This document shows positions 24,221 to 55,044 of a DNA stretch of 58,046 nucleotides, piece by piece (position 1 is the first letter of the stretch; every line of letters begins with the position of its first letter). This DNA is from Alphaproteobacteria bacterium. Its GTDB lineage: Bacteria > Pseudomonadota > Alphaproteobacteria > M2410. The stretch is from NCBI GenBank assembly GCA_006226305.1, contig SBHG01000117.1:1-58046 (forward strand), given 5' to 3'. The position numbers and the translations under genes are program-made. The notes under the pieces are model-generated. The model ran no database searches and was not told the DNA's origin. It was given only the letters and a program-made list of their open reading frames with translations.

Positions 24221-24691
24221 GCTTTTCTTTTCGATGATTTTTTGACAGCCCTCAGCGTGAACCGCATTGAGTAGGGGCTGGACTAGGTTGTCTTGGCTGA
24301 GCCGATGGAAACCTGAGCTCAATCGGAGTGCGAACAACCATTGATGCGGCAAGCACGGCTTGCAGACACTGAAGTGATTTATGGAGCGCGTGGTTCGACC
24401 AGTAAAATCATACGACTTGCAAAGTAAATGATTCGAATAACTAAAAGAAATATGTGGCAGAATTGCCAAAAACTGCGCAAAAATAGACAAAATGCAGCGC
24501 TTTTCTTTAGTTTTGCAGGGGTAACCTTTCCATTTTCGAAATAATGTTCTATCACCTGTGACTGGCATGAGGGTCCGGTGAGCGTGGCCTTCCGGGGGTA
24601 TCCGCGACTTGATTTGGTTTCGTGGCAGCGCTGAATGGGAATTTGGCAAGACCCTCGTTTGACAAGACTAAAGCCAAACGGAGAGTTTCTA

Positions 24692-27301: not shown

Positions 27302-27379
27302 GGGTACCTTGAAAAAGCAAACCAACATTAGCCCACCACAGACAGAAGCGCCCCTCGTTGGGCGCTTCTGCGTGAGGGT

Positions 27380-29383
27380 ATGTTCGTGAGCGATCAAAAA
27401 GCACTGAAGCCGGAAGATCTCGCAGGCATTCGTCTTGAGATGAAGAAGCGGAATTTTAGTCAAGCAGAGACGCGGATCAACGCACTGCTGGAAATTGAAC
27501 CTCAAAATCCGGATATCTTGTATATGCAAGCGGTGACATTGCGTTATCTCAAACGCTTTGGTGCCGCATTGCATGTTCTTGATGAGGTACAGTGCATAAC
27601 GCCCTTTAGTGGGCGTATTCATCAGGAAAGAGGGCACCTATACCGGGATCAGGGACGAAGTCGGGAGGCCATCGACGCCTATCGGTCGGCGGTCCAAATC
27701 AATCCCGCTCTTAAGGCAAGTTGGCGGGGGCTCGCCAAGCTTTCCGACCAGGTGTTCGATAAAGAAACCGCGGCCATGGCCAATGCCCAAGCTGAACGCT
27801 TAGAGAGCTTGCCTCAAGAGCTCTTCGCGGTCGAAAATCTCATATACGAAAATCAGGTTTTAAAGGCTGAGCAGATCTGCCGCACCTATTTGCAGCGCAA
27901 CCCGAAGGACACAGAAGGCATGCGCTTGCTGGCCGACATTGGAGTTCGGCTCGGCGTTCTGGATGATGCGGAATTTCTTCTAGAGAGCGCAGTGGGGCTG
28001 TCACCAAAGAACGTTCAGTTGCGCATTGACTATATTCAGGTTCTTCGCCGACGGCAGAACTTCGCAAGGGCCCTCAGCCAAGCGCGTGATCTTTATACGT
28101 CCGACAAAGACAACCCCGTCTTTCAGTCAATTTTTGCCATTGAACTGATGCAGTCGGGCGACTACGAGGCGGCCTTTCCTCTCTTTGACGCCATCCTGGC
28201 AAAACGGCCAAATGATCCGCAAACTCTTGTCTCGCGGGGTCACGCGTTAAAGACGGTGGGCAGACAGGACGAGGCCATTAGATCGTATCAGACGGCCTGT
28301 GAGGTGGCGCCGGAACTTGGTGAGGCCTGGCACGCGCTCGCAAACCTGAAGACCTATGAATTTATGCAGCTTGAGATTGATCGTATGGAGCGATTGAAGG
28401 CATCGGGCACTTTAACTCCAAAGGATGAGATCGCGATCGATTTCGCGCTTGGCAAAGCCTATGAGGATCGAGGTGATTTCGACCGCTCATTCATGTCCTA
28501 CAGCGCGGGCAACGACCTGAAGCGACAACAGTCCAATTATCGCTCAGATAAAATGGCCGAGGAGTTTGCCAGGCAGAAGGTCGCTTGCACGCCAGGGCTT
28601 TTCGAAAAGCAAGCTGGCCATGGATGTCAGGCCAGGGATCCGATTTTTATCGTCGGCCTGCCGCGCGCAGGGTCTACTTTGCTGGAACAAATTCTCGCCT
28701 CCCATAGCCAGGTGGATGGAACCCTGGAGCTGCCGAATATTTTGTCGTTGGCCCATAAATTGAGAGGTCGGGAGCGGGCGTCCGGCAAGCACCTTTATCC
28801 TGAGAGCCTTCACGACCTAAGAGCGGAAGAGCTTCTGGCATTTGGACAAGCCTATATAGAAGAGACTCAGATCCACCGGCAAGGCGCGCCGCGCTTTACC
28901 GATAAGATGCCGAACAATTTCCGCCACATTGGTCTTATTCATCTCATTTTGCCCAACGCCAAGATTATCGATGCCCGCCGTGAACCGATGGCCTGTTGCT
29001 TTAGCGGCTTTAAGCAACTTTTTGCCGAAGGGCAGGAGTTCACATACGGACTGAAGGAAGTCGGCAGCTACTACCGCGAATATATAGAACTTATGCGGCA
29101 TTTCGATGACGTGCTGCCAGGCAAAATATTGCGCGTGATCCACGAAGATGTGGTGGCGGACCTTGAAGGTCAGGTGCGGCGCCTTCTTGAGTTTTGCGAC
29201 CTGCCTTTTGAGCAAACCTGTCTTGATTTCCACAAAACCGATCGCAGCGTGCGTACCGCAAGCTCCGAACAAGTGCGTCAGCCGGTGAGCAGCACCGGCC
29301 TGGAGCAGTGGAAGAATTTTGAAAAATATTTGGACCCCCTGCGCGCCGCGCTGGGACCCGCCCAATCGGAGTATCGGCAATGA
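27380..29383 (+). CDS. TPR-repeat / sulfotransferase fusion protein
   Basis: 667-aa ORF. The N-terminal ~400 aa are TPR repeats. The C-terminal part has a PAPS 5'-phosphosulfate-binding loop (GLPRAGSTLLEQIL) and a sulfotransferase core (RFTDKMPNNF...RREPMACCFS...TASSEQVRQP). Confidence 0.85.
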   Translation: MFVSDQKALKPEDLAGIRLEMKKRNFSQAETRINALLEIEPQNPDILYMQAVTLRYLKRFGAALHVLDEVQCITPFSGRIHQERGHLYRDQGRSREAIDAYRSAVQINPALKASWRGLAKLSDQVFDKETAAMANAQAERLESLPQELFAVENLIYENQVLKAEQICRTYLQRNPKDTEGMRLLADIGVRLGVLDDAEFLLESAVGLSPKNVQLRIDYIQVLRRRQNFARALSQARDLYTSDKDNPVFQSIFAIELMQSGDYEAAFPLFDAILAKRPNDPQTLVSRGHALKTVGRQDEAIRSYQTACEVAPELGEAWHALANLKTYEFMQLEIDRMERLKASGTLTPKDEIAIDFALGKAYEDRGDFDRSFMSYSAGNDLKRQQSNYRSDKMAEEFARQKVACTPGLFEKQAGHGCQARDPIFIVGLPRAGSTLLEQILASHSQVDGTLELPNILSLAHKLRGRERASGKHLYPESLHDLRAEELLAFGQAYIEETQIHRQGAPRFTDKMPNNFRHIGLIHLILPNAKIIDARREPMACCFSGFKQLFAEGQEFTYGLKEVGSYYREYIELMRHFDDVLPGKILRVIHEDVVADLEGQVRRLLEFCDLPFEQTCLDFHKTDRSVRTASSEQVRQPVSSTGLEQWKNFEKYLDPLRAALGPAQSEYRQ

Positions 29384-30993
29384 AACAAGAAGACGAATTC
29401 GACCTGCCCGAACATCACGCGCCAGAGGAGCTGGCCTATGATACTGATTTTACCACGGGGCAGGACAACATTCAGTTTTGGGGGCTAGACCTGCACAACC
29501 CGGTTTTTTTTGTTGGCGCTTTGTTGATTGCCGGTTTTGTCGTGAGTTCGCTGGCCTTTCCGGATGCGGCGCGAGAGTTGTTTCAGGCGGCGAAAACCGG
29601 GGCTCTCAACAATTTTGATTGGCTCTTTGTTATCACTACAAACATCGTTTTTCTTTTTTGTATCGGGATCGGGTTTTCGAGGTTTGGCCGTATTCGGATC
29701 GGCGGCGCGGAAGCAGAACCGGAGTTTAGTACGATTTCGTGGATCTCCATGCTGTTTTCGGCCGGTGTAGGAATTGGCATGGTGTTTTACGGCGCAGCTG
29801 AACCGATGGCCTATTACACGGGCTGGTCGGGAACACCGCTCAATGCGGAACCTCTCACCCCTGAAGCAAGACAGCTTGCCTTTAGCGCGACCATATTCCA
29901 TTGGGGGATTACGCCTTGGGCAATTTATGCCGTGATTGGTCTGGCGCTCGCCTATTTCACTTTTAACCGTGGTCTGCCCTTGACCATCCGGTCGATTTTC
30001 TACCCCTTGTTTGGTGAGCGCATCTGGGGATGGCCGGGACATGTAATAGACCTGCTTGCCGTTGTCGCGACACTTTTTGGGCTGGCGACTTCTCTTGGCC
30101 TGGGGGCCAAGCAGGCGGCCAGCGGCTTGCACTTCCTTTTTGGTGCCGATCCTGGCCTCCAGACGCAAGTAGTTCTGATTATCGGAATTACTAGCCTGGC
30201 GATCTTTTCCGTTATCAGAGGACTCGACGGTGGTGTGAAACTCCTGAGCAATATTAATATTGTGCTGGCGATCATCGTTTTGATCTTTGTCGTTCTTGCC
30301 GGTCCGACACTACTCATTCTAAAGAGTTATGGCACAAATCTGCTTGCCTATTTTGAGGACGTAACGCGTCTGAGCAATTGGATGGGCCGGGAAGACAAAA
30401 GCTGGTTTCATGGGTGGACGATCTTTTATTGGGCCTGGTGGATTTCCTGGTCCCCATTTGTAGGCATGTTTATCGCACGGGTTTCAAAAGGGCGGACCAT
30501 TCGGGAGTTTCTTTTGGCCGTCTTGGTCCTACCAACCATTGTTGCGGTTGTTTGGTTTTCATCTTTTGGTACAACGGCAATTGATCAGGTGCAAAATGGG
30601 GTGGGCGCTCTGCCGAGCGGCATCAAAGATGTCTCTCTTGTGCTGTTCCAAATGCTTGAGCAATTGCCACTGGCCCAAGTGTCCTCAATGGTGGCGATCC
30701 TTTTGCTCATTGTCTTTTTTGTGACATCATCAGATTCCGGGTCACTCGTGATTGATAGTATTACTGCTGGCGGTAAGCTCCATGCGCCCGTGCCGCAGCG
30801 TATTTTTTGGGCGACTATGGAGGGAATGGTCGCGATTGTTCTGCTCGTGGGCGGTGGCGCAACGGCACTTTCCTCGCTTCAAGCCGGGGCCATCGCAGTC
30901 GGGCTGCCTTTCTCATTGGTCCTGATCGCAAGTTGTATTAGTTTGCTCCGTGGTTTAATGACAGAACCGAGTGTCAAAAGGCCAAAAGACTGA
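29380..30993 (+). CDS. BCCT-family (betaine/carnitine/choline) transporter
   Basis: 537-aa ORF with 12 TM segments and the BCCT signature WTIFYWAWWISWSPFVGMFIARVSKGRTIREF. It shares an ATGA overlap with the sulfotransferase stop. Confidence 0.92.
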   Translation: MKQEDEFDLPEHHAPEELAYDTDFTTGQDNIQFWGLDLHNPVFFVGALLIAGFVVSSLAFPDAARELFQAAKTGALNNFDWLFVITTNIVFLFCIGIGFSRFGRIRIGGAEAEPEFSTISWISMLFSAGVGIGMVFYGAAEPMAYYTGWSGTPLNAEPLTPEARQLAFSATIFHWGITPWAIYAVIGLALAYFTFNRGLPLTIRSIFYPLFGERIWGWPGHVIDLLAVVATLFGLATSLGLGAKQAASGLHFLFGADPGLQTQVVLIIGITSLAIFSVIRGLDGGVKLLSNINIVLAIIVLIFVVLAGPTLLILKSYGTNLLAYFEDVTRLSNWMGREDKSWFHGWTIFYWAWWISWSPFVGMFIARVSKGRTIREFLLAVLVLPTIVAVVWFSSFGTTAIDQVQNGVGALPSGIKDVSLVLFQMLEQLPLAQVSSMVAILLLIVFFVTSSDSGSLVIDSITAGGKLHAPVPQRIFWATMEGMVAIVLLVGGGATALSSLQAGAIAVGLPFSLVLIASCISLLRGLMTEPSVKRPKD

Positions 30994-31014
30994 AACCCTT
31001 GGAACAGGCCCGCC

Positions 31015-31497
31015 ATGGAAACTCACTCAGAGACCGCCCTGATTGCGCTCCGTCAGATCCTCAGGGCCACGGAAATGAACTCCCGGGCCCTGGCAAAGGC
31101 GGCAAATCTATCGCCATCTCAATTGATCTTGCTTCAGGTTCTATCCAGAAGTGATGGCATGACCCCTGGAGCGATCGCCAAACGCTTGTCGATCAGTCAA
31201 GCCACTGTCACAGCCATGATCGACAAACTCTCTGGTCGGGGCCTCGTCGAGCGTCAGCGCGACAACGCTGACAAACGTCGGGTGATCATCCGAATTACAG
31301 GCGACGGCGAAGCCACCATGGCGACGGCACCAGATCAATTGCAGGAACATTTCGTTAAGCGATTTGAGGCCTTGCCGGAGTGGGAGCGGTCATTCTTGAT
31401 TGCCGCGCTCCAGCGCACGGCTTCATTGCTCGACGCAGAAGAAATCGATGCCGCGCCAGTCCTCGATATCGGCGGCATTACCTCTCCGACAACATGA
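31015..31497 (+). CDS. MarR-family transcriptional regulator
   Basis: 160-aa ORF with a wHTH region (LSPSQLILLQVLSRSDGMTPGAIAKRLSISQATVTAMIDKLSGRGLVERQRDNADKRRV). Confidence 0.88.
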   Translation: METHSETALIALRQILRATEMNSRALAKAANLSPSQLILLQVLSRSDGMTPGAIAKRLSISQATVTAMIDKLSGRGLVERQRDNADKRRVIIRITGDGEATMATAPDQLQEHFVKRFEALPEWERSFLIAALQRTASLLDAEEIDAAPVLDIGGITSPTT

Positions 31498-46191: not shown

Positions 46192-47520
46192 ATGATGCCC
46201 GATGCATCAAACCGAAATCTGGATGCTCATTGGATGCCCTTTACCGCGATGCGCGACTTTAAAAAGCGGCCGCGGTTTGTCTCACGGGCTCAGGGTCATT
46301 ATTACTATGACGAAGACGGGCGCCAATTGTATGACAGCTTTGCCGGGCTTTGGTCGTCGGGTCTTGGTCATGGCCATCCAAAAATTGTTGAGGCCGTGCA
46401 ACGCCAAGTCGCTGAAATGGATTATGCCATTGGCTTTCAAGTCAGCCACACGAAAGCGATTGAATTGGCTGAAAAGCTGGTTGATTTTGCGCCCGACGAG
46501 TTTTCAACAGCTTTTTTCACAAATTCCGGATCAGAGTCAGCTGATACTTCCCTCAAGATTGCGCTGGCATATCACCGCGCCAACGGCGAACCTCAGCGAA
46601 CCCGATTTGTCGGCCGCGCGCGAGGCTATCACGGCACAAACTTTGGCGGGATGTCGGTAGGGGGCATTACACCCAACAGAAAAACCTTTAGTGCGGCCCT
46701 GATACCTGGGGTCGATCATTTGCCCCACACCTGGGTTCACGAAAAGAACGCCTTTTCAAAAGGGCAACCTCAATGGGGAGGGCATCTGGCCGATGAGCTG
46801 GAAGATATCTGTGCTCTGCATGATGGGGGCAATATAGCGGCCGTCATCGTAGAGCCGGTTGCCGGTTCAACAGGGATCCTGCCGCCACCGGTTGGATACT
46901 TGGAGCGCCTTCGCGAGATTTGCGATCGTCATGGCATTTTGCTTATTTTTGATGAGGTGATCACCGCATTTGGGCGCCTGGGCGAACCCTTTGCGGCCGA
47001 TCGCTTTAACGTCATGCCGGACCTTATTAACACTGCCAAAGGCCTGACAAATGGTGTCATCCCGATGGGCGCGGTTCTCGTCCAAAAGAAAATCTATGAA
47101 GCCCTAATGAGTGGGCCGGAACAGATGATTGAACTGTTTCATGGCTATACATATTCCGGTCATCCGGTCGCCGCAGCTGCCGGTATTGCGGCCATCGACG
47201 CCACAATAGAAGAGGGGATCTGCCAGCAGGTCCGGGAGCTCGAACCCATCTTTGAAGAAGCCATCCATTCGCTGGCCGATCACCCCAAAGTGACTGACGT
47301 GCGCAATATTGGCCTTATGGGCGGCGTCGATATCGCTCCCAGAGAGGGCGCGCCAGGTATGCGAGGATCTGAGGTTCACAAAATCTGTTTCTGGGATGAG
47401 GATCTGGTGATGCGCAACAGCGCGGACAATTTGCAGTTTTCACCCTTTTTGAATGCTAGACCGGACGACATCGCCATGACCTTTGAAAAGGTGCGGCGCG
47501 CGCTCGACAAAATCGAATAG
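46192..47520 (+). CDS. Class-III (omega) aminotransferase, beta-alanine/omega-amino acid--pyruvate type
   Basis: 442-aa ORF with the N-terminus LDAHWMPFTAMRDFKKRPR, plus FTNSGSESADT, ILLIFDEVITAFGRLG and INTAKGLTNG (PLP Lys). Confidence 0.9.
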   Translation: MMPDASNRNLDAHWMPFTAMRDFKKRPRFVSRAQGHYYYDEDGRQLYDSFAGLWSSGLGHGHPKIVEAVQRQVAEMDYAIGFQVSHTKAIELAEKLVDFAPDEFSTAFFTNSGSESADTSLKIALAYHRANGEPQRTRFVGRARGYHGTNFGGMSVGGITPNRKTFSAALIPGVDHLPHTWVHEKNAFSKGQPQWGGHLADELEDICALHDGGNIAAVIVEPVAGSTGILPPPVGYLERLREICDRHGILLIFDEVITAFGRLGEPFAADRFNVMPDLINTAKGLTNGVIPMGAVLVQKKIYEALMSGPEQMIELFHGYTYSGHPVAAAAGIAAIDATIEEGICQQVRELEPIFEEAIHSLADHPKVTDVRNIGLMGGVDIAPREGAPGMRGSEVHKICFWDEDLVMRNSADNLQFSPFLNARPDDIAMTFEKVRRALDKIE

Positions 47521-47789
47521 GCGAGAGTGTGGCTCTATAGGGGTGTTGATTTCTTCGCACGCTTGGACATGTCGGGTTTGGTGGCAGCATAGGATTTGCC
47601 GACCCGGAATGCGGCATGTCATTTGGCTACGCCATGAACAGGATGGGGCCCAGCATTCTCCTGGACGCGCGCGGCCAGTCCCTAGTGGACGCGGCTTATG
47701 CGTGTCTAGGCTATCGCTCGAACCTTAGCGGGGATTGGCAGCGCAGGTCTTCCTGACAGGCCAGGAAAACCGCGCGCAAATCTGAAACC

Positions 47790-48908
47790 CTAAAAGTCCG
47801 CCATGACGCCTACCTGGAAGACCATCTTGTCGTAGACATAGACGTCATCCACGCTGTCATAATCTTCATAGCTGCCGCGGACGAAGAGCCAGGTATCGCG
47901 TTCGCCCAGGGCATGTTCGTAACCCAGCTTCAACCGATAACCTTCCTTCGAGCTAATCGGTTCCTCATTTTCAAGCACGCTATCAGGCGCCGAGTTATCA
48001 TAGCTGTAATCGCGGTAGCTCAGATCAGCATCAAACCGGCGTCGATCGGACGCACGATAGCGATACCGAACGCCGACGGCATCGGTGGTCGTATCATAGT
48101 AACCTGAAAGATTGTCTTCGCGAATATCGTGGCCATAAGAGAACCGGATGTCCTGATTGTCAGAAAGGTCAATTGTCCAACGCAGATCAAACGACCGCAT
48201 TTCATATTCAAGGCTTGTGCCTGGTATCAGCACACCCAGCAGGTCTCTGCCCTCGCGATCGTCATAATCGCGCTTACTAAAGCTCAATTGTCCGCTGATC
48301 TCCTGGTTGGGGCTTGGCTCAAATGTCAAACGCCCCTCAACAGACCATTGCCTGTGATCAAGATTGGTCAGGCCGAGGCTGTCATAGTCCTCGTAGGTCC
48401 GGTCCCGGCCATCCACCGTCAGGCGAAATTCCGCCTTGTCGGTGAGCTCCACGTCTGCGCGCGCGAAAAGGCTGAAAGTATCGGAGTCAAATCGGTCCGG
48501 CGTCGGTGTGCCGCCCGAGTCGCCAATCATCCCCGTGGTTCGGCTGACGTAGGTCTTGTCCCGGCGACGATAGTCCGCGCCAAATGAATACTCGGTGTCT
48601 TTTCCAAAGAAGGAGCCGTCAAACTCGTAAGAGATGCCCGCGCCAAGAGTATAGCTGTCCGCATCGTCAGCATCGCTTTCAAATTTCACCACGTCGGCAC
48701 CGAGCTTTAATCGCAGGCCGCCTTCCGTCTTGTGGTCAAAGTCAAGTTCAATCTCAGAGAACATGGCCCCATCGGGATCTAGTGATCCGCGCAATTTGAA
48801 CGGGTTGTCATCATAACCAAGTGAGACAGAGCCCGAAACGTCGGCATGAGCGAGGTGGACGGGAGCGAGGATGGTCGTCATAGCCAAGACGATTACTGAC
48901 TTTTTCAT
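47790..48908 (-). CDS. Putative outer-membrane beta-barrel protein
   Basis: 372-aa ORF with a signal peptide (LAMTTILAPVHLAHA/DV). It has a repeated amphipathic-strand pattern rich in D/Y/R/G and ends in VGVMADF (terminal Phe). It is the last gene of the fusion/TPR/barrel operon. Confidence 0.62.
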   Translation of the reverse strand: MKKSVIVLAMTTILAPVHLAHADVSGSVSLGYDDNPFKLRGSLDPDGAMFSEIELDFDHKTEGGLRLKLGADVVKFESDADDADSYTLGAGISYEFDGSFFGKDTEYSFGADYRRRDKTYVSRTTGMIGDSGGTPTPDRFDSDTFSLFARADVELTDKAEFRLTVDGRDRTYEDYDSLGLTNLDHRQWSVEGRLTFEPSPNQEISGQLSFSKRDYDDREGRDLLGVLIPGTSLEYEMRSFDLRWTIDLSDNQDIRFSYGHDIREDNLSGYYDTTTDAVGVRYRYRASDRRRFDADLSYRDYSYDNSAPDSVLENEEPISSKEGYRLKLGYEHALGERDTWLFVRGSYEDYDSVDDVYVYDKMVFQVGVMADF

Positions 48909-48942
48909 TGTTCTTTTCCGTTATTGTTAGCCATTCAAGGCC

Positions 48943-50877
48943 CTACATAGCATTTGATTGCAATTTGGTTAATAGAAGATGAGCGGGCTCATAGTTTTCA
49001 TCGAGAAGAAGAATTTTCCGCAATTCTTCCACCGCTGCTGAAGTTGCCTTGTTCTGTACAAGAATGCGTGCCTTCAAAAAACGAGCATCGATGGAGTTGC
49101 TTTCACGCTCAATGGCATCGTTGACCGTTGCGAGGGCGTCATTCAAATTGCCAACAGACAACTGAAGTTCAGCAAGCTTGAGCGCAATAGCCATATCCGT
49201 ATTGCCAAGGTCGACAACCTGCGAATACATCGCAATTGCTTTTCTGGGTTTTCCCTGTTTCAGGTAGAGATCGCCGCTCTGCGTATAGGCCTGAATCGGC
49301 CGCTTTTTTCGCGCAATCACATCATTAAGAACGCTCAGTGCTCCGTCAAAATCGTTGGCGGCGATTTCCTGATCTACCAGCTCATAGGAAATCCGGTCAC
49401 TTTCCGGTTGAAGCTGATAGGCGCGCCGAGCCTCTTGCAAGGCAGCAGCGTCATTACCGGCCCCTCGCAAGGCAAGACTGTGTCCATAAGCAAAAGCGGG
49501 GCTGCGATCGCTCATTTGTGTCAAAATTTCAAATTGAGCCACGCAATCATTGGGTTGCCCTTGTGAGAGCAGCTTCAGGGCATATGCGTATCGAAGGGGT
49601 TGATAAAACGTTGTATCGTCAATGAAAGGCTCAAAGAGGTCTTCTGAGAGACCCTCCGCGTTGGTTTCAATCTGGACAAACAGGAGGAGGGCCTCTGTCA
49701 GCGGTTCTCCTCGGGTGCGACTTGCCGAAAGGCTTTCGGTGGCTCGAGAAATTTTCCGCTCCGAACCCTCAATGAGAGCTGATAAGGCATCAAACTGGCG
49801 GTTCTGGCTGGCCGAACGCTTTGTGCTTTGGATCTTCCGCAAGACCCGTTTGGCGCTGGCGGGCCTTCCGGAGATGTAGAGGTTAAGAGCTCGGTGCAAT
49901 CCGATCGACAGTCGGTCTTTTGCCAGATTATGAGCCTCGCGATAAACCGAAATGGCGTCTCTAAACCGGCCTTTGCCAAAATAGAAATTGGCAAGTTCTG
50001 TAGCTGGGACGGAATTGTGGGGCGCCAGGGCAATTGCCTTGATGAAAGCACTTTCAATGTCTTCTTGCGAATGTGTGCCTGAACTGTTTATCGCCATGGC
50101 AAGTTTTCGCCATGTCGCGCTGTGATTTGGGCGATACTCAATTGATTTTTTGAATACAGCAATGGCTTCATCATATCGTGCAAGCTCAACCAGTGACGAT
50201 CCCTGTGCAGAAAGCGCTTTACCTCGGCGCTCACCGCTGGAAATTTCCGCTGCGTGGTGCAGAACAGCCAGAGCTTCGACATGTCGGTCAAGCTTGGCCA
50301 GCAGCAGCCCTAGATTAATGTTAGCTGCCTGGTGGTTTGGAAAGGCGGCGACATGTTGACGGTAGCTTTCCAGTGCTTCTTCATCCCGGTCTTGCGCGCG
50401 CAGGGCGTAGCCGTAAGCAAAGGCGCTTCCCAGAGCTGCGCGATCTTCAGGTGACAGACTCGCAAAAACATCAACCGCTTCCCCATAGTGTTGACGCCTG
50501 GAGAGCTCTTCGCCAGCGAAGGCTACGATGGCCGGCTGAAGGGTCGGATCGGCATTCTCAAAAAAAGAAGCAGTTGTAAGTTGGTCAAGTTTAAAAGCGG
50601 TCCCTCTAGACGCCTCAATCAACTTGACAACAGCTTCCGCCAGATCTGGCGACAAAGTCACACTGGTAATATCTTCCGTCGGATCGTCTTCATCAGCGCT
50701 AACGGCGACCACTTGAGTTTCAGAGACAGACTGCGCCAAACGCTGGTCCACCATGATGACGATGGCTGCCAGTAAAAGCGCAATGGCAGCTAAGCCTGGT
50801 GCAGAAAGCGCGACGCGGGAATCAAGAGGTCTGAAGATGGAATTCCAGGTCACGGCGTAAGCCCTTTTTTTGAACAT
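48943..50877 (-). CDS. Membrane-anchored multi-TPR protein (start uncertain: ATG 50877, GTG 50853, or upstream 51003)
   Basis: There is one TM segment (GLAAIALLLAAIVIMV) followed by about 600 aa of TPR-like repeats (YGYALRAQDRDEEALESYRQ..., GDLYLKQGKPRKAIAMYSQ...). Every candidate start overlaps the 3' end of the upstream gene. Confidence 0.7.
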   Translation of the reverse strand: MFKKRAYAVTWNSIFRPLDSRVALSAPGLAAIALLLAAIVIMVDQRLAQSVSETQVVAVSADEDDPTEDITSVTLSPDLAEAVVKLIEASRGTAFKLDQLTTASFFENADPTLQPAIVAFAGEELSRRQHYGEAVDVFASLSPEDRAALGSAFAYGYALRAQDRDEEALESYRQHVAAFPNHQAANINLGLLLAKLDRHVEALAVLHHAAEISSGERRGKALSAQGSSLVELARYDEAIAVFKKSIEYRPNHSATWRKLAMAINSSGTHSQEDIESAFIKAIALAPHNSVPATELANFYFGKGRFRDAISVYREAHNLAKDRLSIGLHRALNLYISGRPASAKRVLRKIQSTKRSASQNRQFDALSALIEGSERKISRATESLSASRTRGEPLTEALLLFVQIETNAEGLSEDLFEPFIDDTTFYQPLRYAYALKLLSQGQPNDCVAQFEILTQMSDRSPAFAYGHSLALRGAGNDAAALQEARRAYQLQPESDRISYELVDQEIAANDFDGALSVLNDVIARKKRPIQAYTQSGDLYLKQGKPRKAIAMYSQVVDLGNTDMAIALKLAELQLSVGNLNDALATVNDAIERESNSIDARFLKARILVQNKATSAAVEELRKILLLDENYEPAHLLLTKLQSNAM

Positions 50878-53323
50878 TTTGAATTTCAATTCCAGGACGT
50901 CCGTTGACCTCCAGAACAATGGGGCCATCGTGATCGTCCAGGCAGATATCGACCCCGAGATAGCCAAGCGGAATGGCTTTGCCGCAGGCAATCGCAATGT
51001 CAACTATTTGATCCCAATAGGGCACGACAAATCCCTCCAGCGAGGCATTGGAATCGGGATGAGTCTTAATTTCTCTGCCCTTGATGGAGGCACGCCGGGT
51101 CGCGCCGGTCTTCAGGTCAATGGCAATGCCAATGGCGCCTTGGTGAAGATTCGCTTTGCAGTTGGACTGGCTCGTCGGCAGGCGCAGCATGGCGCTGATA
51201 GGCTTGCCACGGAACAAAATGACGCGAATATCTGACAACCCTAAGTCCGCCAGCCGGTTGAGCGCATGGTGTTGCTCCAAGAGAGGTTCAACATATGCGG
51301 CATCGGGGCGACTATCCTGCGAGTAGGTTCCGCTCAATACATGAAGCGTGTGGCGCTCAATGTCCTTCAAGGTCAGATGATCACCATTGGCTGCGATAAA
51401 GGACCCGTCTTCCTGGCCTCGGATCACCAAAATGCCATTGCCCTGCGTGCCACGGTTCGGCTTAAGCACAAATCGATCAAGCTCCCGAATTACCGCCAGA
51501 AAGTCATCGAGATCATGATGGTTCGCGCAAATGGCCAGTGTGTCGCAAACCGGAATGTGGGCAGTCGCAAGCGCTTCTTTGGTGCGCACCTTATCCGTCG
51601 CAAGCTCAAGAAAGATACGCGGGTTGACCAGATTGACATAGTCCCTGTTGCGGCTGTTGATGCCAAGGGCGGAGCCGTCACCAAGAATGTTTCTGAAGCG
51701 AATATACTCAAGCAACCGCATGCCAGGCCACCGCCCGAAATAGATCAACACCGCCAACACCAAAAACAGGGTTTCCGGCATCAGCGAGAAGACGCTTTGC
51801 AGAACGACGGAAGAAAAGGCAAAAAAGCAAATCGTCGTTGAGATGAGAACACCGACTGAGGAGATAAACAGCTCACGCCAGTTTCGGTCTTCCGCCATCT
51901 GGTGAATTCGGTCCGCGAGAAACGAAATGATGATAACCGGAAAGAGGGCCAGCATTCCAAAATTCCACGAGACCTTACCGCCCAAAGACCAAAGAACCAC
52001 AATGAACAGCCCGGTACACAAGGTGATAATCGCCGCAAGTCTGGGAACTTTGAGCAATCGATATCGGTCCAAAAAGGCGTGCCCCAGGAAAGCAAAGAGG
52101 ACGACCGCGCCAAATGCTGAAAGGCCTTCAACAAGCCCCGTGTGAACACAGGCCGCCGCCACCAGCATCGGCATAAAAGTTCCAAAGGTGTGCAGGCCAA
52201 TAACATTACGCAAGAACGCCACAACAAGAGCGCCGAAGGGAAACAACAAAAAGACCCCAATGGTCCTTTCGTCAAGACCCGTAAAGGCAAGCAGCTCGGC
52301 GGCATTCATGCGTGAGGGTGAGGGCTCCTCGTCAGCCTCGCCAAAGCGGAACAGGGCTGAGGAAAGGTGTTCTTTCTCGATATCAAACAAATACTCGAAA
52401 TTGATATTTTTCGTGTGTGTAAACAGCGGCAGGTCGCCGGTATAAAGCTGAAGGTAATTCGCAGGAAGCGTTGCAAAGTGTCCATTTGTCGGATCGATCG
52501 GAACCCAATGATCCTGAACCCAAACCTCGACCCATTGGTGCGAGGTCTTTTTGCGCCCATTGTTTAAAATAACCCCGCCCACAAGCCGTGCCGGAATTCC
52601 GTTGTAACGGGCGAGTGCAACAAAGAGGCGCCCCTTGCCGTTACAGCTCGCCTGTTTGAGCCGCAGGGCGGTCAGCGCATCGGTGAACCCCTTAAAGGGC
52701 GCCCCCTCGATCTCTTCGTAAACATAGCGATAGATGGTTTGAAGTGTCGGCAGGAGCAATCGGTCCTGCCCCGAACCGATTTGCGACCAGACTTGGTCAA
52801 TCTCTTTATGGAAGACCGGGATCGCTTCGGTGCCCATCAAATAGGCTGTGACTTCTTCAGGAAGCTGTCTCGAAATACGAAGATTAGGGTCAAGTTGATA
52901 GGTCACTCGTTTCGAGGCGACAAGCGCATGATAGCTTAATTTTGACTCTCCGCGACCACTCCAGACACCGAGCCGGCCATCCCCGTTCTCCGTGTCGTCA
53001 AAAGAGAAGGATCCGGAAATAACATGTTCACGGACGACGTCCTGATGGGCATCGGACAGGGGGAGGTAGGTCCGCACGGCTACATCGTCCGTATCTTCAT
53101 CAAAAGACATGGTCAGCGTATAGCTATGCAGGGTTTCCGATCGGAAGCCCGCCAATAGGTCGGGCTGTGCATGGAGCCGAAGACCGACAAGGCAAAGCCC
53201 GACAACACAGGATAAAATGGCGGGGTCCAGCAACCAAAGGCGGCTGCGAAAATATTTCCCTCTTGGAGAGACCATAACGGGCACCAGACGCAATACTGCC
53301 CTCCTCACACAAAAGGGCTTCAC
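50822..53323 (-). CDS. Tri-domain fusion: transglutaminase-like core + 7TM block + RimK/alpha-L-glutamate-ligase-like ATP-grasp
   Basis: 833-aa ORF from a GTG at 53323, with an alternative ATG at 53275.
- TGase core: C227 in ASCNGKG lies 15 aa before GIPAR, with H262 in SHQWVEVW and D277 in PIDPT.
- aa ~345-535 contain seven hydrophobic helices.
- aa ~550-833 are ATP-grasp (LGINSRNRDYVNLVNPR, VLKPNRGTQGNGI, GVDICLDD..VLEVNGRPG). Confidence 0.8.
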   Translation of the reverse strand: MKPFCVRRAVLRLVPVMVSPRGKYFRSRLWLLDPAILSCVVGLCLVGLRLHAQPDLLAGFRSETLHSYTLTMSFDEDTDDVAVRTYLPLSDAHQDVVREHVISGSFSFDDTENGDGRLGVWSGRGESKLSYHALVASKRVTYQLDPNLRISRQLPEEVTAYLMGTEAIPVFHKEIDQVWSQIGSGQDRLLLPTLQTIYRYVYEEIEGAPFKGFTDALTALRLKQASCNGKGRLFVALARYNGIPARLVGGVILNNGRKKTSHQWVEVWVQDHWVPIDPTNGHFATLPANYLQLYTGDLPLFTHTKNINFEYLFDIEKEHLSSALFRFGEADEEPSPSRMNAAELLAFTGLDERTIGVFLLFPFGALVVAFLRNVIGLHTFGTFMPMLVAAACVHTGLVEGLSAFGAVVLFAFLGHAFLDRYRLLKVPRLAAIITLCTGLFIVVLWSLGGKVSWNFGMLALFPVIIISFLADRIHQMAEDRNWRELFISSVGVLISTTICFFAFSSVVLQSVFSLMPETLFLVLAVLIYFGRWPGMRLLEYIRFRNILGDGSALGINSRNRDYVNLVNPRIFLELATDKVRTKEALATAHIPVCDTLAICANHHDLDDFLAVIRELDRFVLKPNRGTQGNGILVIRGQEDGSFIAANGDHLTLKDIERHTLHVLSGTYSQDSRPDAAYVEPLLEQHHALNRLADLGLSDIRVILFRGKPISAMLRLPTSQSNCKANLHQGAIGIAIDLKTGATRRASIKGREIKTHPDSNASLEGFVVPYWDQIVDIAIACGKAIPLGYLGVDICLDDHDGPIVLEVNGRPGIEIQNVQKKGLRRDLEFHLQTS

Positions 53324-53359
53324 AGATGCAGTTTTACCGCAAATGAAGAAAATATCAGG

Positions 53360-54409
53360 TTAATTTATCCCTAAAACTTGCAACTGCTTCGCAGTCGCCT
53401 TTGTCAAAATGTCGCGTCGGCGTTGTTTGGGCGGACAGCCAAACCATCTCTTGCAGCTACGGGTAAATACTGCCTGCTCCGAATAACCCAAGAGGCTTGC
53501 AATATGCGCCAGGGGAATGTTGTTTTGCGCCAAATAGACATCGGCAAGCTCTTTTCGAACCTCGTCGCGGAGCTTCTCAAAAGTCGTTGAAACGCGAGAC
53601 AGACGCTGTTGCAAGGTCCTGGGGTGAATTGAAAGGGCCCGCGCGGCGGCTGAGAGGGTCGCCGGCTGACTGCGCATGAGATGACGAAGCACTTCTTTTG
53701 TTTGCTGATCAACGGGCAGATGATCACTTGGCAACCGAAATTGCACAAATTGCCGAGCATAATTAGCGAGCAGCGGACTGTGTTTGGGAAGGAGACTTCG
53801 AAAGGCGCGGCGGTCAACACAAACCCCATTCCAGTTTTCGCCAAAACGCGCGTCAATGCCAAAATGGCGCCGATAGGTCTCAAGGGGGGACAACCGGTCG
53901 TGACGAAAACAAACCGCGTGAACCGCCAGCCTTTCACCCATTAACAGCTTGAGCGCCTTAAGGATAACCCCGATGGCGTGCTCGATCGCCTGATCCATAG
54001 GCACAGGCTCGGCCAGATGAATATCAAAAACCAATTGATCAATGTCCGAGTCCGGCTCTTCACGCACTTCAAATTGAATACTGGGCGACTGGAAAGCAAT
54101 GTTTTGGGCTGTCAATTTCATCCCATGATAGGCGCTCGGTGCATTCTGCATCGCAAAGGCCAGAGGCCCGACAATGCTGATGTCCTGGAAACTGGCCAGC
54201 TGCAGGCCCAGGTCTGAAACCTCGAGTTTTTGGGCAGCGCCCTCCAGCGCAGCAATGAACGAATAATAGGAGATATAGCGATCCGGATTATCCAGTTCGG
54301 CAATACGAAGGCCGGAAGCGGCTAACAAGACCTGCGGGTCACCGCCCAGGCTCGAAATAAGGCGCCGATATCCCGTAAGGGCCCCGGATCTGACGACTTC
54401 CTCTCTCAT
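53360..54409 (-). CDS. AraC-family transcriptional regulator (N-terminal ligand-binding-type domain)
   Basis: 349-aa ORF with a C-terminal double HTH (LSAAARALSIHPRTLQQRLSRV...IASLLGYSEQAVFTRSCKRWFG). It lies 36 nt upstream of the fusion gene on the same strand and is divergent from the cupin gene. Confidence 0.9.
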   Translation of the reverse strand: MREEVVRSGALTGYRRLISSLGGDPQVLLAASGLRIAELDNPDRYISYYSFIAALEGAAQKLEVSDLGLQLASFQDISIVGPLAFAMQNAPSAYHGMKLTAQNIAFQSPSIQFEVREEPDSDIDQLVFDIHLAEPVPMDQAIEHAIGVILKALKLLMGERLAVHAVCFRHDRLSPLETYRRHFGIDARFGENWNGVCVDRRAFRSLLPKHSPLLANYARQFVQFRLPSDHLPVDQQTKEVLRHLMRSQPATLSAAARALSIHPRTLQQRLSRVSTTFEKLRDEVRKELADVYLAQNNIPLAHIASLLGYSEQAVFTRSCKRWFGCPPKQRRRDILTKATAKQLQVLGIN

Positions 54410-54546
54410 GGAAAGAAGTTTTGCATGTCATTCGTGTGAAGTCAAAAAACTTTCGCGTGAGATCAAGACTAAAAGGGCGCCAGGGACTACTCTCTGCCTT
54501 GGTTACAAAAGAGGCGCCAACAATGGCGAGCAGCAGGAGAATTATC

Positions 54547-55044
54547 ATGGGACTCGAGGCAGTTATTCACCAGCAGAACTATTTGCTGACAATCAACCGG
54601 CACAAAGACGGCGAAGTGGTCGATGCAATTCCGGGTGTGCATGTCACGCCTTGTTTTCTGGACTCGGAAAATGGCGTTTGGGTGCTCTATGCCCGCTTTG
54701 ATCCGGGCACACTTCTGCCGCGACATTATCACACCGGCGTTGTGCATTTTTATACGACCAAGGGGTCGTGGAACTATGTTGAATATCCAGACGATGTGCA
54801 GACAGAGGGCAGTTATCTGTTTGAACCGGGGGGATCAATTCATACCTTTCAATCGAAAGAGGGCGCTGAGGGATTTATGGTCGTTCATGGCGCGAACGTG
54901 AACCTCAATGAAGATGATACGTTGATGTTCATCATGGATGCCGGGTGGATTGAGCAGACAATTATTGCTGTGGCCAAGCAAAATGGCCAAAAGCTTCCGC
55001 GATATATCAAGCCCAAGGCTGGCTCTGATTTCAGCGACAGCTGA
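54547..55044 (+). CDS. Cupin-fold protein (2,4'-dihydroxyacetophenone dioxygenase/ChrR-like family)
   Basis: The ORF is open from 54421. The best start is the ATG at 54547, preceded by AGGAGAATTATC. The cupin motif is LLPRHYHTGVVHFYTTKGSW...EPGGSIHTF. Confidence 0.62.
   Translation: MGLEAVIHQQNYLLTINRHKDGEVVDAIPGVHVTPCFLDSENGVWVLYARFDPGTLLPRHYHTGVVHFYTTKGSWNYVEYPDDVQTEGSYLFEPGGSIHTFQSKEGAEGFMVVHGANVNLNEDDTLMFIMDAGWIEQTIIAVAKQNGQKLPRYIKPKAGSDFSDS

What the first reader, a model, noticed from the sequence alone, without database searches (positions are those of the whole stretch)
47790..53323. Candidate envelope-spanning peptide/poly-amino-acid system: TGase-7TM-ATP-grasp fusion + TM-anchored TPR protein + OM beta-barrel
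ORF 50822-53323 (833 aa) concatenates three modules that I can read directly.
- aa ~55-320 form a transglutaminase-like core whose Cys-His-Asp triad appears intact. C227 in ASCNGKG lies exactly 15 residues before GIPAR, the spacing I recall for active bacterial TGase cores. H262 is in SHQWVEVW and D277 is in PIDPT.
- aa ~345-535 contain seven hydrophobic helices.
- aa ~550-833 form a RimK/alpha-L-glutamate-ligase-like ATP-grasp domain.

An Arg/Lys-rich N-terminus plus one TM before the TGase domain gives 1+7 TM segments. That places the TGase in the periplasm and the ATP-dependent ligase in the cytoplasm, which is a self-consistent topology.

The stop of this ORF overlaps the start region of a TM-anchored, ~640-aa all-TPR protein. 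A signal-peptide protein with OM-barrel features (terminal Phe) follows 34 nt later.

A TPR scaffold plus an OM barrel is the export architecture of synthase-dependent polymer systems (AlgK/AlgE, PgaA, BcsC). Here the 'synthase' is an amino-acid ligase. This suggests cytoplasmic ligation, translocation, periplasmic cross-linking or trimming, and OM export or anchoring of a peptide-like product.

To my knowledge the TGase/7TM/ATP-grasp association has only been noted computationally. In those cases the parts were usually separate genes and the TGase was described as inactive, and no function has been shown experimentally. I know of no characterised system that explains the triple fusion with an apparently intact triad and the TPR/barrel partners.
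Basis: partly seen in the sequence, partly recalled or inferred. Interest (0 to 1): 0.82.

Follow-up and report, generated by a model that had tools for sequence, protein, structure and literature searches.

The report
Active-transglutaminase Rlo-like envelope operon
A three-gene operon encodes one inner-membrane protein (periplasmic cysteine-enzyme domain, seven membrane helices, cytoplasmic amino-acid ligase), a membrane-anchored TPR protein and an outer-membrane barrel; it is a widespread, unstudied relative of the Pseudomonas RloBC stress-tolerance system and probably makes or remodels a peptide-like envelope product.

Summary
ORF 50822-53323(-) carries Transglut_core, 7TM_transglut and a RimK/RloC-like ATP-grasp domain. 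C227, H262 and D277 align with the catalytic triad. A TM-anchored TPR gene overlaps its stop by 56 nt, and a 16-stranded outer-membrane barrel gene follows 34 nt later.

It is not unique. At least 543 stretches in species-representative genomes, mostly marine Alpha- and Gammaproteobacteria, encode the same fusion.
- The TPR gene follows in 76 of 76 informative loci.
- The barrel follows in 40 of 69.
- Nothing else is conserved.

The closest studied system is P. aeruginosa rloABC (2025): a secreted poly-Glu-cleaving retropepsin RloA, an inactive TGase-7TM protein RloB, and the ATP-grasp protein RloC. In 80 canonical RloB loci the Cys and His are absent, RloA is adjacent in 56, and TPR and barrel are never present.

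An unbiased profile search adds unfused active forms and fused forms that have lost the Cys; where examined, most of these also have TPR, with or without the barrel. Fusions link the ligase protein to the TPR, and a TPR to the barrel.

Best reading: an Rlo-type trans-envelope machine in which an active periplasmic cysteine enzyme plus a TPR-barrel module takes the place of RloA. The product, probably an acidic peptide, is inferred, not shown. This is a new variant of a known kind.

The parts
50822..53323 (-). Fusion gene TGase-7TM-ATP-grasp. The longest ORF starts at GTG 53323 (833 aa). The likely real start is TTG 53293 after the Shine-Dalgarno sequence GAGGAGG (823 aa). The stop codon is 50822-50824.
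53183..53293 (-). K/R-rich cytoplasmic N-terminus plus TM1 (signal anchor; aa 29-47 in ORF numbering).
   Evidence: Hydropathy and positive-inside count
52289..53182 (-). Periplasmic two-lobed domain: an N-terminal beta-sandwich plus a transglutaminase/papain-like core. Catalytic codons are C227 = 52643-52645, H262 = 52538-52540 and D277 = 52493-52495.
   Evidence: Pfam PF01841; profile hit to PDB 3ISR with the triad aligned; AF2 model with pLDDT 87; Foldseek match to 3ISR, TM 0.70, E 2e-17; Cys and His invariant in 26 diverse homologues
51719..52288 (-). Seven-helix membrane domain (7TM_transglut, PF14402), homologous to the membrane part of RloB.
50825..51676 (-). Cytoplasmic RimK/RloC-like ATP-grasp ligase domain. 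The K..GxQGxG motif and the D/E-x-N Mg-ATP motifs are conserved.
   Evidence: PF14397 at 228 bits and TIGR02291 at 258 bits; 39% identity to Legionella RloC; PDB profile hits to RimK, cyanophycin synthetase and TTLL enzymes; invariant columns
48943..50877 (-). TM-anchored periplasmic all-TPR protein (644 aa from ATG 50877). Its start overlaps the end of the fusion gene by 56 nt, which suggests translational coupling.
   Evidence: homologue immediately downstream in 76 of 76 informative loci; N-terminal hydrophobic anchor in 72 of 73 homologues; fused to the ligase protein in P0185
47790..48908 (-). Outer-membrane 16-stranded beta-barrel (372 aa). It has a signal peptide at aa 1-22 and a C-terminal Phe, and it belongs to no curated family.
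   Evidence: AF2 pLDDT 87 with 16 strands; generic porin fold matches; adjacent in 40 of 69 informative loci

Best explanation
The three genes form one operon. It encodes an envelope-spanning machine of the Rlo kind, meaning a TGase-7TM membrane protein working with a RimK-like ATP-grasp ligase.

Shown here:
- The domain architecture and the predicted topology.
- An intact, conserved Cys-His-Asp site.
- Obligate pairing with an inner-membrane-anchored periplasmic TPR protein, and frequent pairing with a 16-stranded outer-membrane barrel.
- Absence of the RloA protease that accompanies the inactive-TGase relatives.

Inferred:
1. The cytoplasmic ligase builds an acidic alpha-peptide, most likely oligo- or poly-glutamate, free or on a carrier.
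2. The covalently attached 7TM domain passes it to the periplasmic face.
3. The active transglutaminase/papain-like domain cuts it, or transfers it to an acceptor amine. This is the job that secreted RloA does, by hydrolysis, in rloABC systems.
4. The TPR protein bridges the periplasm to the barrel, which releases or anchors the product at the outer membrane.
For: - Architecture and triad.
- Homology to RloB and RloC over the full length, with Cys, His and Asp replaced by Ile, Phe and Asn in Legionella RloB.
- Synteny: the TPR gene follows in 76 of 76 informative loci and the barrel in 40 of 69, and no other neighbour is conserved. Nucleotide homology to the nearest relative is delimited to exactly these three genes.
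- Contrast set: in 80 unfused RloB loci, RloC is adjacent in 75 and RloA in 56, TPR and barrel in none, and none of 81 aligned RloB sequences has the Cys or the His. RloA is absent from the window and from all 80 fusion loci.
- Fusion chain: P0185 is TGase-7TM-ATP-grasp-TM-TPR in one 1558-aa protein, with a TM helix exactly between the ligase and the TPR. P0132 and P0134 are TPR-barrel fusions of the same barrel family. A Halobacterium ORF fuses the 7TM domain to the ATP-grasp domain.
- Unfused active-site-bearing relatives also carry TPR, with or without the barrel.
- Literature (PMC12239564): RloA is secreted and cleaves stretches of 8 or more Glu. Deleting rloB or rloC suppresses the defects of the rloA1-3 triple mutant, so RloBC generate something in the envelope that must be processed.
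Against: - No product, substrate or activity is known for any member, including RloB and RloC.
- The 7TM domain has no detectable relative among solved transporters.
- The mature barrel is net acidic (75 D+E against 41 K+R). Its predicted lumen is mixed-charge rather than electropositive, which is not what a polyanion channel such as AlgE would lead one to expect.
- The barrel is absent beside the operon in the Henriciella/Hyphomonas clade and in Kangiella.
- The third triad residue is Gly in 17 of 81 fusions, and some fused relatives have lost the Cys while keeping TPR and barrel. Catalysis by this domain is therefore not indispensable for the module.
- The clean active/inactive dichotomy is partly an ascertainment effect, because the genome-scan patterns contained the Cys and His motifs. 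The unbiased search shows a continuum.
Confidence: 0.45

Rival explanations
1. Cell-wall or envelope-protein remodelling machine. The TGase domain cross-links or cleaves existing envelope macromolecules, such as peptidoglycan stem peptides, lipoproteins or outer-membrane proteins. The ligase adds amino acids to a precursor or carrier. The TPR-barrel pair is an outer-membrane tether or regulator that positions the enzyme, in the manner of TPR regulators of peptidoglycan synthases. It is not an export conduit.
For: - Lormand et al. link the rlo phenotypes (cell shape, beta-lactam sensitivity, hypo-osmotic lysis) to peptidoglycan homeostasis.
- Structural neighbours of the periplasmic domain include P. 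aeruginosa TgpA and the pseudomurein endoisopeptidases PeiP and PeiW.
- An inactive relative sits next to a monofunctional peptidoglycan glycosyltransferase gene (L173, L174).
- The barrel is dispensable in many lineages, and its lumen is not electropositive.
Against: - The ligase is closest to the RimK/RloC poly-Glu type, not to Mur or Ddl ligases.
- RloA's specificity for stretches of 8 or more Glu points to a polymeric acidic product.
- No peptidoglycan-synthesis gene is conserved next to the fusion operon.
Confidence: 0.2
2. Transmembrane sensor-effector. The periplasmic TGase-like domain, with the TPR and barrel proteins, senses an envelope cue. The 7TM domain transmits it to the ligase, whose target is cytoplasmic, in the way RimK targets ribosomal protein S6. 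Nothing is translocated.
For: - In RloB the periplasmic domain is catalytically dead yet conserved, which fits a binding or sensing role.
- The 7TM domain resembles no known transporter.
- RimK acts on a cytoplasmic protein (established knowledge; PDB names).
- Some fused members have lost the Cys but keep the TPR and barrel partners.
Against: - Cys and His are invariant across fusions that are only 41-57% identical, and they are retained in most unfused close relatives. That argues for catalysis.
- In the sister system the genetically linked protease is secreted and is suppressed by loss of RloB or RloC. This is hard to explain if the product stays in the cytoplasm.
Confidence: 0.15
3. The TPR and barrel genes are chance neighbours that belong to another pathway.
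For: Both give only generic family hits. The TPR-barrel fusions P0132 and P0134 occur in an unrelated context beside an ECF sigma factor.
Against: - The TPR gene is adjacent in 76 of 76 informative loci across Alpha- and Gammaproteobacteria whose flanks are otherwise unrelated.
- The genes overlap.
- P0185 is a single-polypeptide fusion of the ligase protein and the TPR.
Confidence: 0.02

Closest known systems
P. aeruginosa RloABC (RloB inactive-TGase/7TM protein plus RloC ATP-grasp plus secreted retropepsin RloA; Lormand et al., mBio 2025, PMC12239564; NCBIfam NF052267 and TIGR02291)
   Same: - The periplasmic lobe, the 7TM domain and the ligase are homologous over their full length: 26% identity to Legionella RloB over 504 aligned positions and 39% to RloC.
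- The gene and domain order is the same.
- The predicted topology is the same.
   Different: - Here RloB and RloC are one polypeptide.
- Cys-His-Asp are present, whereas RloB has a 3-residue deletion at the Cys position and no His.
- There is no RloA gene nearby.
- A TM-anchored TPR protein and an outer-membrane barrel are present instead, and they are never found in 80 RloB loci.
- The score against the RloB model is 106 bits against a cut-off of 900.
RimK (ribosomal protein S6 poly-alpha-L-glutamate ligase) with the RimB protease
   Same: ATP-grasp fold with conserved nucleotide and Mg motifs. RimK is the best solved-structure relative of the C-terminal domain.
   Different: - The relationship is only distant: TIGR00768 scores 63.6 bits against a cut-off of 143.
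- RimK is soluble and acts on a cytoplasmic protein.
- Here the ligase is tethered to a membrane domain.
Bacterial transglutaminase-like cysteine enzymes (PDB 3ISR from Cytophaga hutchinsonii; P. aeruginosa TgpA, PDB 6G4H)
   Same: - The two-lobed fold matches: TM 0.70 to 3ISR.
- The Cys-His-Asp triad aligns.
- TgpA is likewise an inner-membrane protein with a periplasmic TGase domain.
   Different: Those proteins have no 7TM_transglut domain, no ligase and no TPR or barrel partners. The biochemical role of 3ISR is unknown.
TPR plus outer-membrane-porin modules of synthase-dependent exopolysaccharide systems (AlgK/AlgE, PgaA, BcsC, PelB)
   Same: - Periplasmic TPR solenoid plus an outer-membrane beta-barrel, encoded with an inner-membrane synthase.
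- The barrel has 16 strands, as I recall PgaA and BcsC do (not checked here).
- TPR-barrel single-chain versions of this barrel family exist.
   Different: - There is no sequence membership: PgaA 35 bits against 367, BcsC 34 bits against 858.
- The barrel fold match to AlgE (TM 0.52-0.53) is no better than to ordinary porins.
- The TPR protein is inner-membrane-anchored.
- The 'synthase' is an amino-acid ligase, not a glycosyltransferase.
- The barrel is missing from the operon in about 40% of loci.

Membership tests
Rlo-type system (RloB/RloC) | 7TM_transglut membrane domain (PF14402) | tested here: met
   136 bits against GA 25. It aligns with Legionella and Aeromonas RloB across all seven helices.
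Rlo-type system (RloB/RloC) | RloC-type ATP-grasp (TIGR02291 / PF14397) encoded directly after the membrane protein | tested here: met
   PF14397 scores 228 bits. TIGR02291 scores 258 bits, below its whole-protein cut-off of 314. The domain is 39% identical to Legionella RloC and is fused in frame.
Rlo-type system (RloB/RloC) | Catalytically inactive transglutaminase domain | tested here: not met
   C227, H262 and D277 are present and aligned to the catalytic triad. None of 81 RloB sequences has the Cys or the His.
Rlo-type system (RloB/RloC) | Secreted retropepsin RloA (PF05618, RimB-like) in the operon | tested here: not met
   tblastn with two RloA queries finds nothing in the 58-kb window or in 80 fusion loci, but finds RloA in 56 of 80 RloB loci.
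Rlo-type system (RloB/RloC) | Curated NCBIfam RloB model NF052267 cut-off | tested here: not met
   106 bits against 900.
Rlo-type system (RloB/RloC) | Role in hypo-osmotic tolerance, biofilm formation and antibiotic tolerance | not testable with these tools
   Requires genetics.
Transglutaminase-like superfamily, catalytically competent members | Pfam Transglut_core above the gathering score | tested here: met
   67.5 bits against 23.
Transglutaminase-like superfamily, catalytically competent members | Cys at a helix N-terminus with His and Asp on adjacent strands; triad conserved in the family | tested here: met
   AF2 secondary structure. Triad aligned to 3ISR. Cys and His invariant in 26 diverse fusions; Asp in 20 of 26, Gly in 6.
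Transglutaminase-like superfamily, catalytically competent members | Demonstrated acyl-transfer or hydrolase activity | not testable with these tools
   Requires an enzyme assay.
RimK family alpha-L-glutamate ligases | ATP-grasp motifs for ATP and Mg binding | tested here: met
   VLKPNRGTQGNGI and GVDI...LEVNGRPG align with the RimK motifs. These columns are invariant.
RimK family alpha-L-glutamate ligases | Family-level sequence membership (TIGR00768) | tested here: not met
   63.6 bits against 143.4.
RimK family alpha-L-glutamate ligases | Glutamate as substrate | not testable with these tools
   Inferred only, from homology and from RloA's poly-Glu specificity.
Synthase-dependent polymer export TPR/porin modules (AlgK-AlgE, PgaA, BcsC, PelB) | Periplasmic TPR protein plus outer-membrane barrel encoded with the inner-membrane synthase | tested here: met
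   Operon structure and conserved synteny.
Synthase-dependent polymer export TPR/porin modules (AlgK-AlgE, PgaA, BcsC, PelB) | Sequence membership of the TPR or barrel protein in PgaA, BcsC, AlgK or AlgE families | tested here: not met
   For the TPR protein, TIGR03939 scores 35 bits against 367 and NF008520 scores 34 bits against 858. For the barrel, TIGR03939 scores 15 bits. PgaA_barrel appears in only 1 of 14 family members, at E 0.019.
Synthase-dependent polymer export TPR/porin modules (AlgK-AlgE, PgaA, BcsC, PelB) | Barrel structurally specific to export porins | tested here: inconclusive
   AlgE gives TMq 0.52-0.53, but OmpG, OprP, chitoporin and OmpF give 0.46-0.52.
Synthase-dependent polymer export TPR/porin modules (AlgK-AlgE, PgaA, BcsC, PelB) | Glycosyltransferase synthase and polysaccharide product | tested here: not met
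   No glycosyltransferase is present in the operon or conserved nearby.

The most novel reading that the evidence does not exclude
This operon family is a previously unrecognised, synthase-dependent-like secretion or attachment pathway for a ribosome-independent poly-amino acid, such as poly-alpha-glutamate, in Gram-negative bacteria. An ATP-grasp ligase would polymerise at the cytoplasmic mouth of a dedicated 7TM translocon. A periplasmic transglutaminase-fold enzyme would trim the chain or covalently transfer it. A TPR-barrel conduit would take it to the cell surface. That would make it a peptide counterpart of the alginate, PNAG and cellulose machineries. It would also reveal what RloB and RloC do in pathogens.
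Probability: 0.3. Interest if true: 0.85.

Novelty: new variant of a known kind. Interest (0 to 1): 0.62.

Why it matters
RloB and RloC matter for Pseudomonas osmotic tolerance, antibiotic tolerance, biofilm formation and infection fitness, but their biochemical function is unknown. The branch found here offers several handles on that question.
- It keeps a catalytic periplasmic domain and lacks the RloA protease, so the periplasmic processing step may be built into the same protein.
- It adds outer-membrane partners, so the pathway may reach the outer membrane.
- Ligase, translocon candidate and processing enzyme sit in one polypeptide, which is convenient for reconstitution and cryo-EM.
- Cultured hosts carry it. 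Pseudomaricurvus alkylphenolicus KCTC 32386 and two Aliikangiella species have the full cassette, and Kangiella species have the two-gene form.

If the product is a secreted or surface-bound poly-amino acid, that would be a new class of Gram-negative envelope polymer pathway, found mainly in marine bacteria.

Tried and rejected
- **Promoter and terminator scan of 47300-54800.** Counts were at shuffle level, so it gives no support for or against operon boundaries.
- **Iyer et al. 2009 (PMC3268129).** This is the source of the Pfam families, but it is not held, so I could not check whether it mentions active or TPR-linked forms.
- **Literature searches.** Searches for 'sugar-transfer associated ATP-grasp', for 'alpha-L-glutamate ligase-like' with transglutaminase, and for combined TPR, outer-membrane and polyglutamate terms found nothing beyond the Rlo paper.
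- **Barrel fold search.** It returned only generic porin similarity and no informative family. Pfam scans at E up to 1 gave weak OMP_b-brl and BBP2_2 hits and no Slam or DUF560 barrel hit.
- **PDB profile search with the full-length alignment.** No relative was found for the 7TM domain.
- **AraC-type regulator upstream (53360-54409).** I considered it as an operon regulator. No homologue is detectable in any of the 80 related loci, including the closest one at 85% identity, so I do not count it as part of the system.
- **First comparison.** It suggested a perfect rule: fused means active means TPR, and unfused means inactive means RloA. I rejected it as stated because the genome-scan patterns contained the Cys and His motifs. 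The unbiased search then showed unfused active forms, fused Cys-less forms, and Cys-less forms with neither partner.
- **TPR-barrel fusions P0132 and P0134.** They are not next to a TGase-ligase gene. They support a link between the barrel family and TPR domains, not a link to this operon.

Full report
**1. What is in the sequence**

Three ORFs lie head to tail on the minus strand: 50822-53323, 48943-51003 and 47790-48908 (translations).

The first ORF carries three Pfam domains above the gathering score:
- Transglut_core, aa 192-278, 67.5 bits.
- 7TM_transglut, aa 354-546, 136 bits.
- ATPgrasp_ST, aa 558-826, 228 bits.

NCBIfam places the C-terminal domain nearest TIGR02291, 'alpha-L-glutamate ligase-like protein' (258 bits). 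It places residues 225-547 nearest NF052267, 'osmotic stress tolerance membrane protein RloB' (106 bits, far below the cut-off of 900).

- C227 in ASCNGKG, codon 52643-52645.
- GIPAR begins 15 residues later.
- H262 in SHQWVEV, codon 52538-52540.
- D277 in PIDPT, codon 52493-52495.

Hydropathy gives one TM helix at aa 29-47 after a K/R-rich N-terminus. A 300-residue hydrophilic stretch follows, then seven hydrophobic helices between aa 357 and 530. K/R-rich loops fall on the side predicted to be cytoplasmic, and the stretch after the last helix is Arg-rich. This gives the TGase lobe outside and the ligase inside.

The probable true start of the fusion is TTG 53293, seven bases after GAGGAGG. 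It matches the 823-aa gene call on record.

The TPR gene most plausibly begins at ATG 50877 (MFKKRAY...). That is 56 nt before the fusion's stop codon, in another frame. The same N-terminus is matched in several other genomes, where the two genes also overlap.

The TPR protein has one N-terminal hydrophobic anchor and about 600 residues of TPR.

The barrel gene starts 34 nt after the TPR stop. The protein has a signal peptide and ends in Phe.

**2. Structure-level checks**

An AF2 model of the periplasmic lobe, built from a 17-sequence alignment, has pLDDT 87. It shows an N-terminal beta-sandwich and an alpha/beta core. The Cys sits at the N-terminus of a helix, and the His and Asp sit on neighbouring strands.

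Foldseek against the PDB gives these matches:
- 3ISR, a 'putative cysteine protease / transglutaminase-like enzyme' from Cytophaga hutchinsonii, over both lobes (TM 0.70, E 2e-17).
- Then the periplasmic TGase domain of P. aeruginosa TgpA, S. pyogenes TglA and animal transglutaminases.
- More distantly, pseudomurein endoisopeptidases and LapG.

A sequence profile of the lobe also hits 3ISR (E 8e-7), with Cys, His and Asp in register.

The barrel model (pLDDT 87, pTM 0.81) has 16 long strands that begin directly after the signal peptide. Its PDB matches are many porins at TM 0.45-0.53. AlgE is among the highest, but it is not separated from OmpG, OprP or chitoporin. The protein is therefore an outer-membrane barrel of no recognisable subfamily.

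Pfam gives only sub-threshold OMP_b-brl and BBP2_2 hits for the barrel family.

A strand-parity estimate suggests a charged but not electropositive lumen, with 25 K/R against 29 D/E.

**3. How common the fusion is, and what travels with it**

A protein search returned more than 1000 homologues. The best 120 are mostly about 800-aa proteins (a few are shorter, likely partial), and all carry the same three Pfam families. They come from Hyphomonadaceae, Maricaulis, Kangiella, Aliikangiella, Cellvibrionaceae, Motiliproteus and many marine MAGs.

A scan of one genome per species found 543 stretches encoding relatives, and I fetched the best 80 with 10-kb flanks. The nearest is an alphaproteobacterial MAG at 85% identity.

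What flanks the fusion in those 80 loci:
- The window's TPR protein has a homologue immediately downstream in every locus that extends far enough, 76 of 76.
- The barrel follows the TPR gene in 40 of 69 informative loci.
- The barrel is missing there in the Henriciella/Hyphomonas clade, in Kangiella and in one Hydrogenovibrio MAG, where most often an opposite-strand gene follows. A family HMM finds no diverged copy within 10 kb.
- Clustering all flanking ORFs shows no other gene family shared by more than 17 loci.
- The N-terminal anchor of the TPR protein is conserved in 72 of 73 homologues.
- The nucleotide match between the window and its closest relative starts and ends at the borders of the three genes.

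The unit is therefore a self-contained cassette of two or three genes.

**4. The closest studied system**

The NCBIfam name led to Lormand et al. (mBio 2025, PMC12239564). In P. aeruginosa the rlo operon encodes three proteins:
- RloA, a secreted retropepsin-like protease that cleaves runs of 8 or more glutamates in vitro.
- RloC, a cytoplasmic ATP-grasp protein 24% identical to RimK.

Loss of all three RloA paralogues causes hypo-osmotic lethality, shape defects, biofilm defects and beta-lactam sensitivity. Deleting rloB or rloC suppresses these defects. The physiological substrate is unknown.

A Shewanella vesiculosa homologue of the inactive-TGase protein affects membrane-vesicle production (PMC12096838).

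A canonical rloABC locus on a Legionella adelaidensis plasmid, and one in Aeromonas caviae, gave me reference sequences. RloB aligns with the first 550 residues of the window protein (26% identity). At the catalytic positions it has Ile, Phe and Asn, and a three-residue deletion removes the 'CNG'. RloC is 39% identical to the C-terminal domain.

**5. Contrast set**

A metagenome scan seeded with RloB returned 80 unfused loci. In these loci:
- RloC follows directly in 75.
- RloA precedes in 56.
- No TPR or barrel homologue is present in any.

None of the 81 RloB sequences has Cys or His at the aligned columns. All 81 fusions do, with Asp at the third position in 63, Gly in 17 and Cys in 1. No RloA homologue is present in the window or in the 80 fusion loci.

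**6. Correction for ascertainment**

The genome scan used peptide patterns that contain the catalytic Cys and His, so the perfect rule above is partly circular.

I therefore searched 1.84 billion cluster representatives with a profile of the periplasmic lobe, using no word index. There were 134 hits at E up to 1e-30 and 1388 at E up to 1e-10. The best 150 break down as follows:
- 20 proteins of 740 aa or more, mostly full fusions. Of these, 11 have Cys and His and 9 have lost the Cys. At least one, P0253 (748 aa), is a longer TGase-7TM protein with a separate ATP-grasp gene.
- 78 unfused TGase-7TM proteins of 480-640 aa, of which 56 have Cys and His, with Asp or Cys at the third position.
- Fragments.

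Gene contexts of a sample:

| Protein | Form | Active site | Context |
|---|---|---|---|
| P0144 | unfused | Cys-His present | TPR, then TGase-7TM, then ATP-grasp |
| P0147 | unfused | Cys-His present | TGase-7TM, ATP-grasp, then TPR |
| P0145 | unfused | Cys-His present | TGase-7TM, ATP-grasp, TPR, then barrel (family HMMs E 2e-49 and 9e-44) |
| P0188 | fused | Cys to Pro | fusion, TPR, then barrel (E 5e-77 and 4e-93) |
| P0228 | unfused | Cys lost | ATP-grasp only; neither TPR nor RloA |
| P0253 | unfused (748 aa) | Cys lost | ATP-grasp only; neither TPR nor RloA |
| P0252 | unfused | inactive | RimB-like (RloA) gene upstream, peptidoglycan glycosyltransferase gene downstream |

The robust statement is that there are two system types. 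One pairs TGase-7TM and the ligase with RloA, and its TGase is always dead. The other pairs them, fused or not, with a TM-anchored TPR protein and often the barrel. In that second type the TGase is usually, but not always, catalytically equipped. The window belongs to the second type.

**7. Fusions that tie the parts together**

- P0185 (1558 aa, L166) is TGase-7TM-ATP-grasp followed by a hydrophobic helix (aa 795-811), an acidic linker and about 560 residues that match the TPR-partner HMM (E 2e-53). A distant barrel homologue is the next gene.
- The helix between the ligase and the TPR is what the predicted topology requires, with the ligase inside and the TPR outside.
- P0132 and P0134 are proteins of about 535 aa. 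In P0132 an N-terminal TPR region is followed by a barrel homologous to the window's from its first strand (GYDDNPF) onward. They sit in a different genomic context.
- A Halobacterium plasmid carries an unannotated 584-aa 7TM-ATP-grasp fusion with no TGase lobe.

**8. Mechanism**

Shown: the architecture, the conserved catalytic residues, the predicted topology, the partner genes, and the relationship to RloBC.

Inferred, in four steps:
1. The ligase makes an acidic peptide. The basis is its RimK/RloC kinship and RloA's poly-Glu specificity in the sister system.
2. The 7TM domain conveys the peptide outward. The basis is the recurrent physical coupling of the 7TM domain to the ligase, and the genetic evidence that RloBC create a problem which a secreted protease solves.
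3. The Cys-His-Asp lobe trims or transfers the peptide, replacing RloA.
4. The TPR protein spans the periplasm to the barrel.

Weak points:
- No activity is known for any member.
- No transporter homology was found for the 7TM domain.
- The barrel is not electropositive and is often absent.
- Some members keep the TPR and barrel partners without the Cys.

I put this model at 0.45, a cell-wall or envelope-protein remodelling role at 0.2, a sensor-effector reading at 0.15, and chance adjacency at 0.02.

**9. Novelty and score**

The fusion gene family is in the databases under uninformative names ('sugar-transfer associated ATP-grasp domain-containing protein', 'alpha-L-glutamate ligase-like protein'). 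Its relatives RloB and RloC were named in 2025.

I found no paper in the held library on the TPR/barrel-linked, catalytically equipped branch. I could not read Iyer et al. 2009.

I rate it a new variant of a known kind, with interest 0.62. The architecture itself would not astonish a specialist. However, the near-exclusive pairing with either RloA or TPR, with or without the barrel, together with the retained active site, makes the open question of what RloBC do more directly testable.

Noticed in passing
L166:2591-7267 (protein P0185): A 1558-aa single protein joins TGase, 7TM, ATP-grasp, an extra TM helix (aa 795-811) and about 560 aa of TPR homologous to the window's TPR partner. A distant barrel homologue (421 aa) is the next gene.
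   Followed up: yes
L165:3824-5578 (Halobacterium sp. DL1 plasmid CP007061): An unannotated 584-aa ORF in an archaeon fuses the 7TM_transglut-type membrane domain directly to the ATP-grasp ligase, with no transglutaminase lobe. It lies beside transposase genes.
   Followed up: partly
L083:2921-4534 (P0132) and L084:817-2415 (P0134): TPR-barrel single-chain proteins whose barrel is homologous to the window's barrel. P0132 sits next to an ECF sigma / anti-sigma pair, not next to a TGase-ligase gene.
   Followed up: partly
window 24522-31492 versus L001:2619-9592: A block encoding a TonB-dependent receptor, a TPR-sulfotransferase, a BCCT transporter and a MarR regulator lies directly beside the operon in the closest relative. 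In the window it is 16 kb away and in inverted relative orientation. The intervening 31.5-47.8 kb holds Fic, LysR, polysaccharide deacetylase, TPR, CusB/CusA-like efflux, an ArsP-like permease and an AptA-like aminotransferase. This points to a rearrangement or insertion.
   Followed up: partly
window 53360-54409 (-): An AraC-family regulator (QhpR-like, 153 bits, below cut-off) ends 36 nt upstream of the fusion ORF on the same strand. It has no detectable homologue in any of the 80 related loci, so it may be a lineage-specific regulator or just a neighbour.
   Followed up: partly
L173:5419-8369 and L174:5258-8136: An inactive TGase-7TM gene is preceded by a RimB-like (RloA-type) protease gene and followed by a monofunctional peptidoglycan glycosyltransferase gene (PF00912). 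No ATP-grasp gene is adjacent. The locus sits just after the ribosomal protein / rpoA cluster.
   Followed up: no
L081:7357-9653 (Legionella adelaidensis plasmid 5): The canonical rloA-rloB-rloC locus is on a 54-kb plasmid. It is followed, on the opposite strand, by two C1-family (papain-like) peptidase genes.
   Followed up: no
L035, L037, L038, L040-L044, L049, L050, L055, L058, L061, L062, L064, L067, L072 (column of D277): In 17 gammaproteobacterial fusions the third triad residue is Gly (PFGPTNG) while Cys and His are kept. In many unfused relatives it is Cys. An invariant Asn three residues later might substitute for it.
   Followed up: partly
window 27380-29383 (+): A 667-aa protein combines N-terminal TPR repeats with a C-terminal sulfotransferase domain (Sulfotransfer_3, E 3e-50).
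   Followed up: no
L082 (NZ_AP026896.1, Aeromonas caviae 'plasmid pKAM479_3'): This PLSDB 'plasmid' record is 4.94 Mb with 18 annotated features, so it is evidently a chromosome. It carries an unannotated rloABC locus at L082:4732-8031.
   Followed up: no
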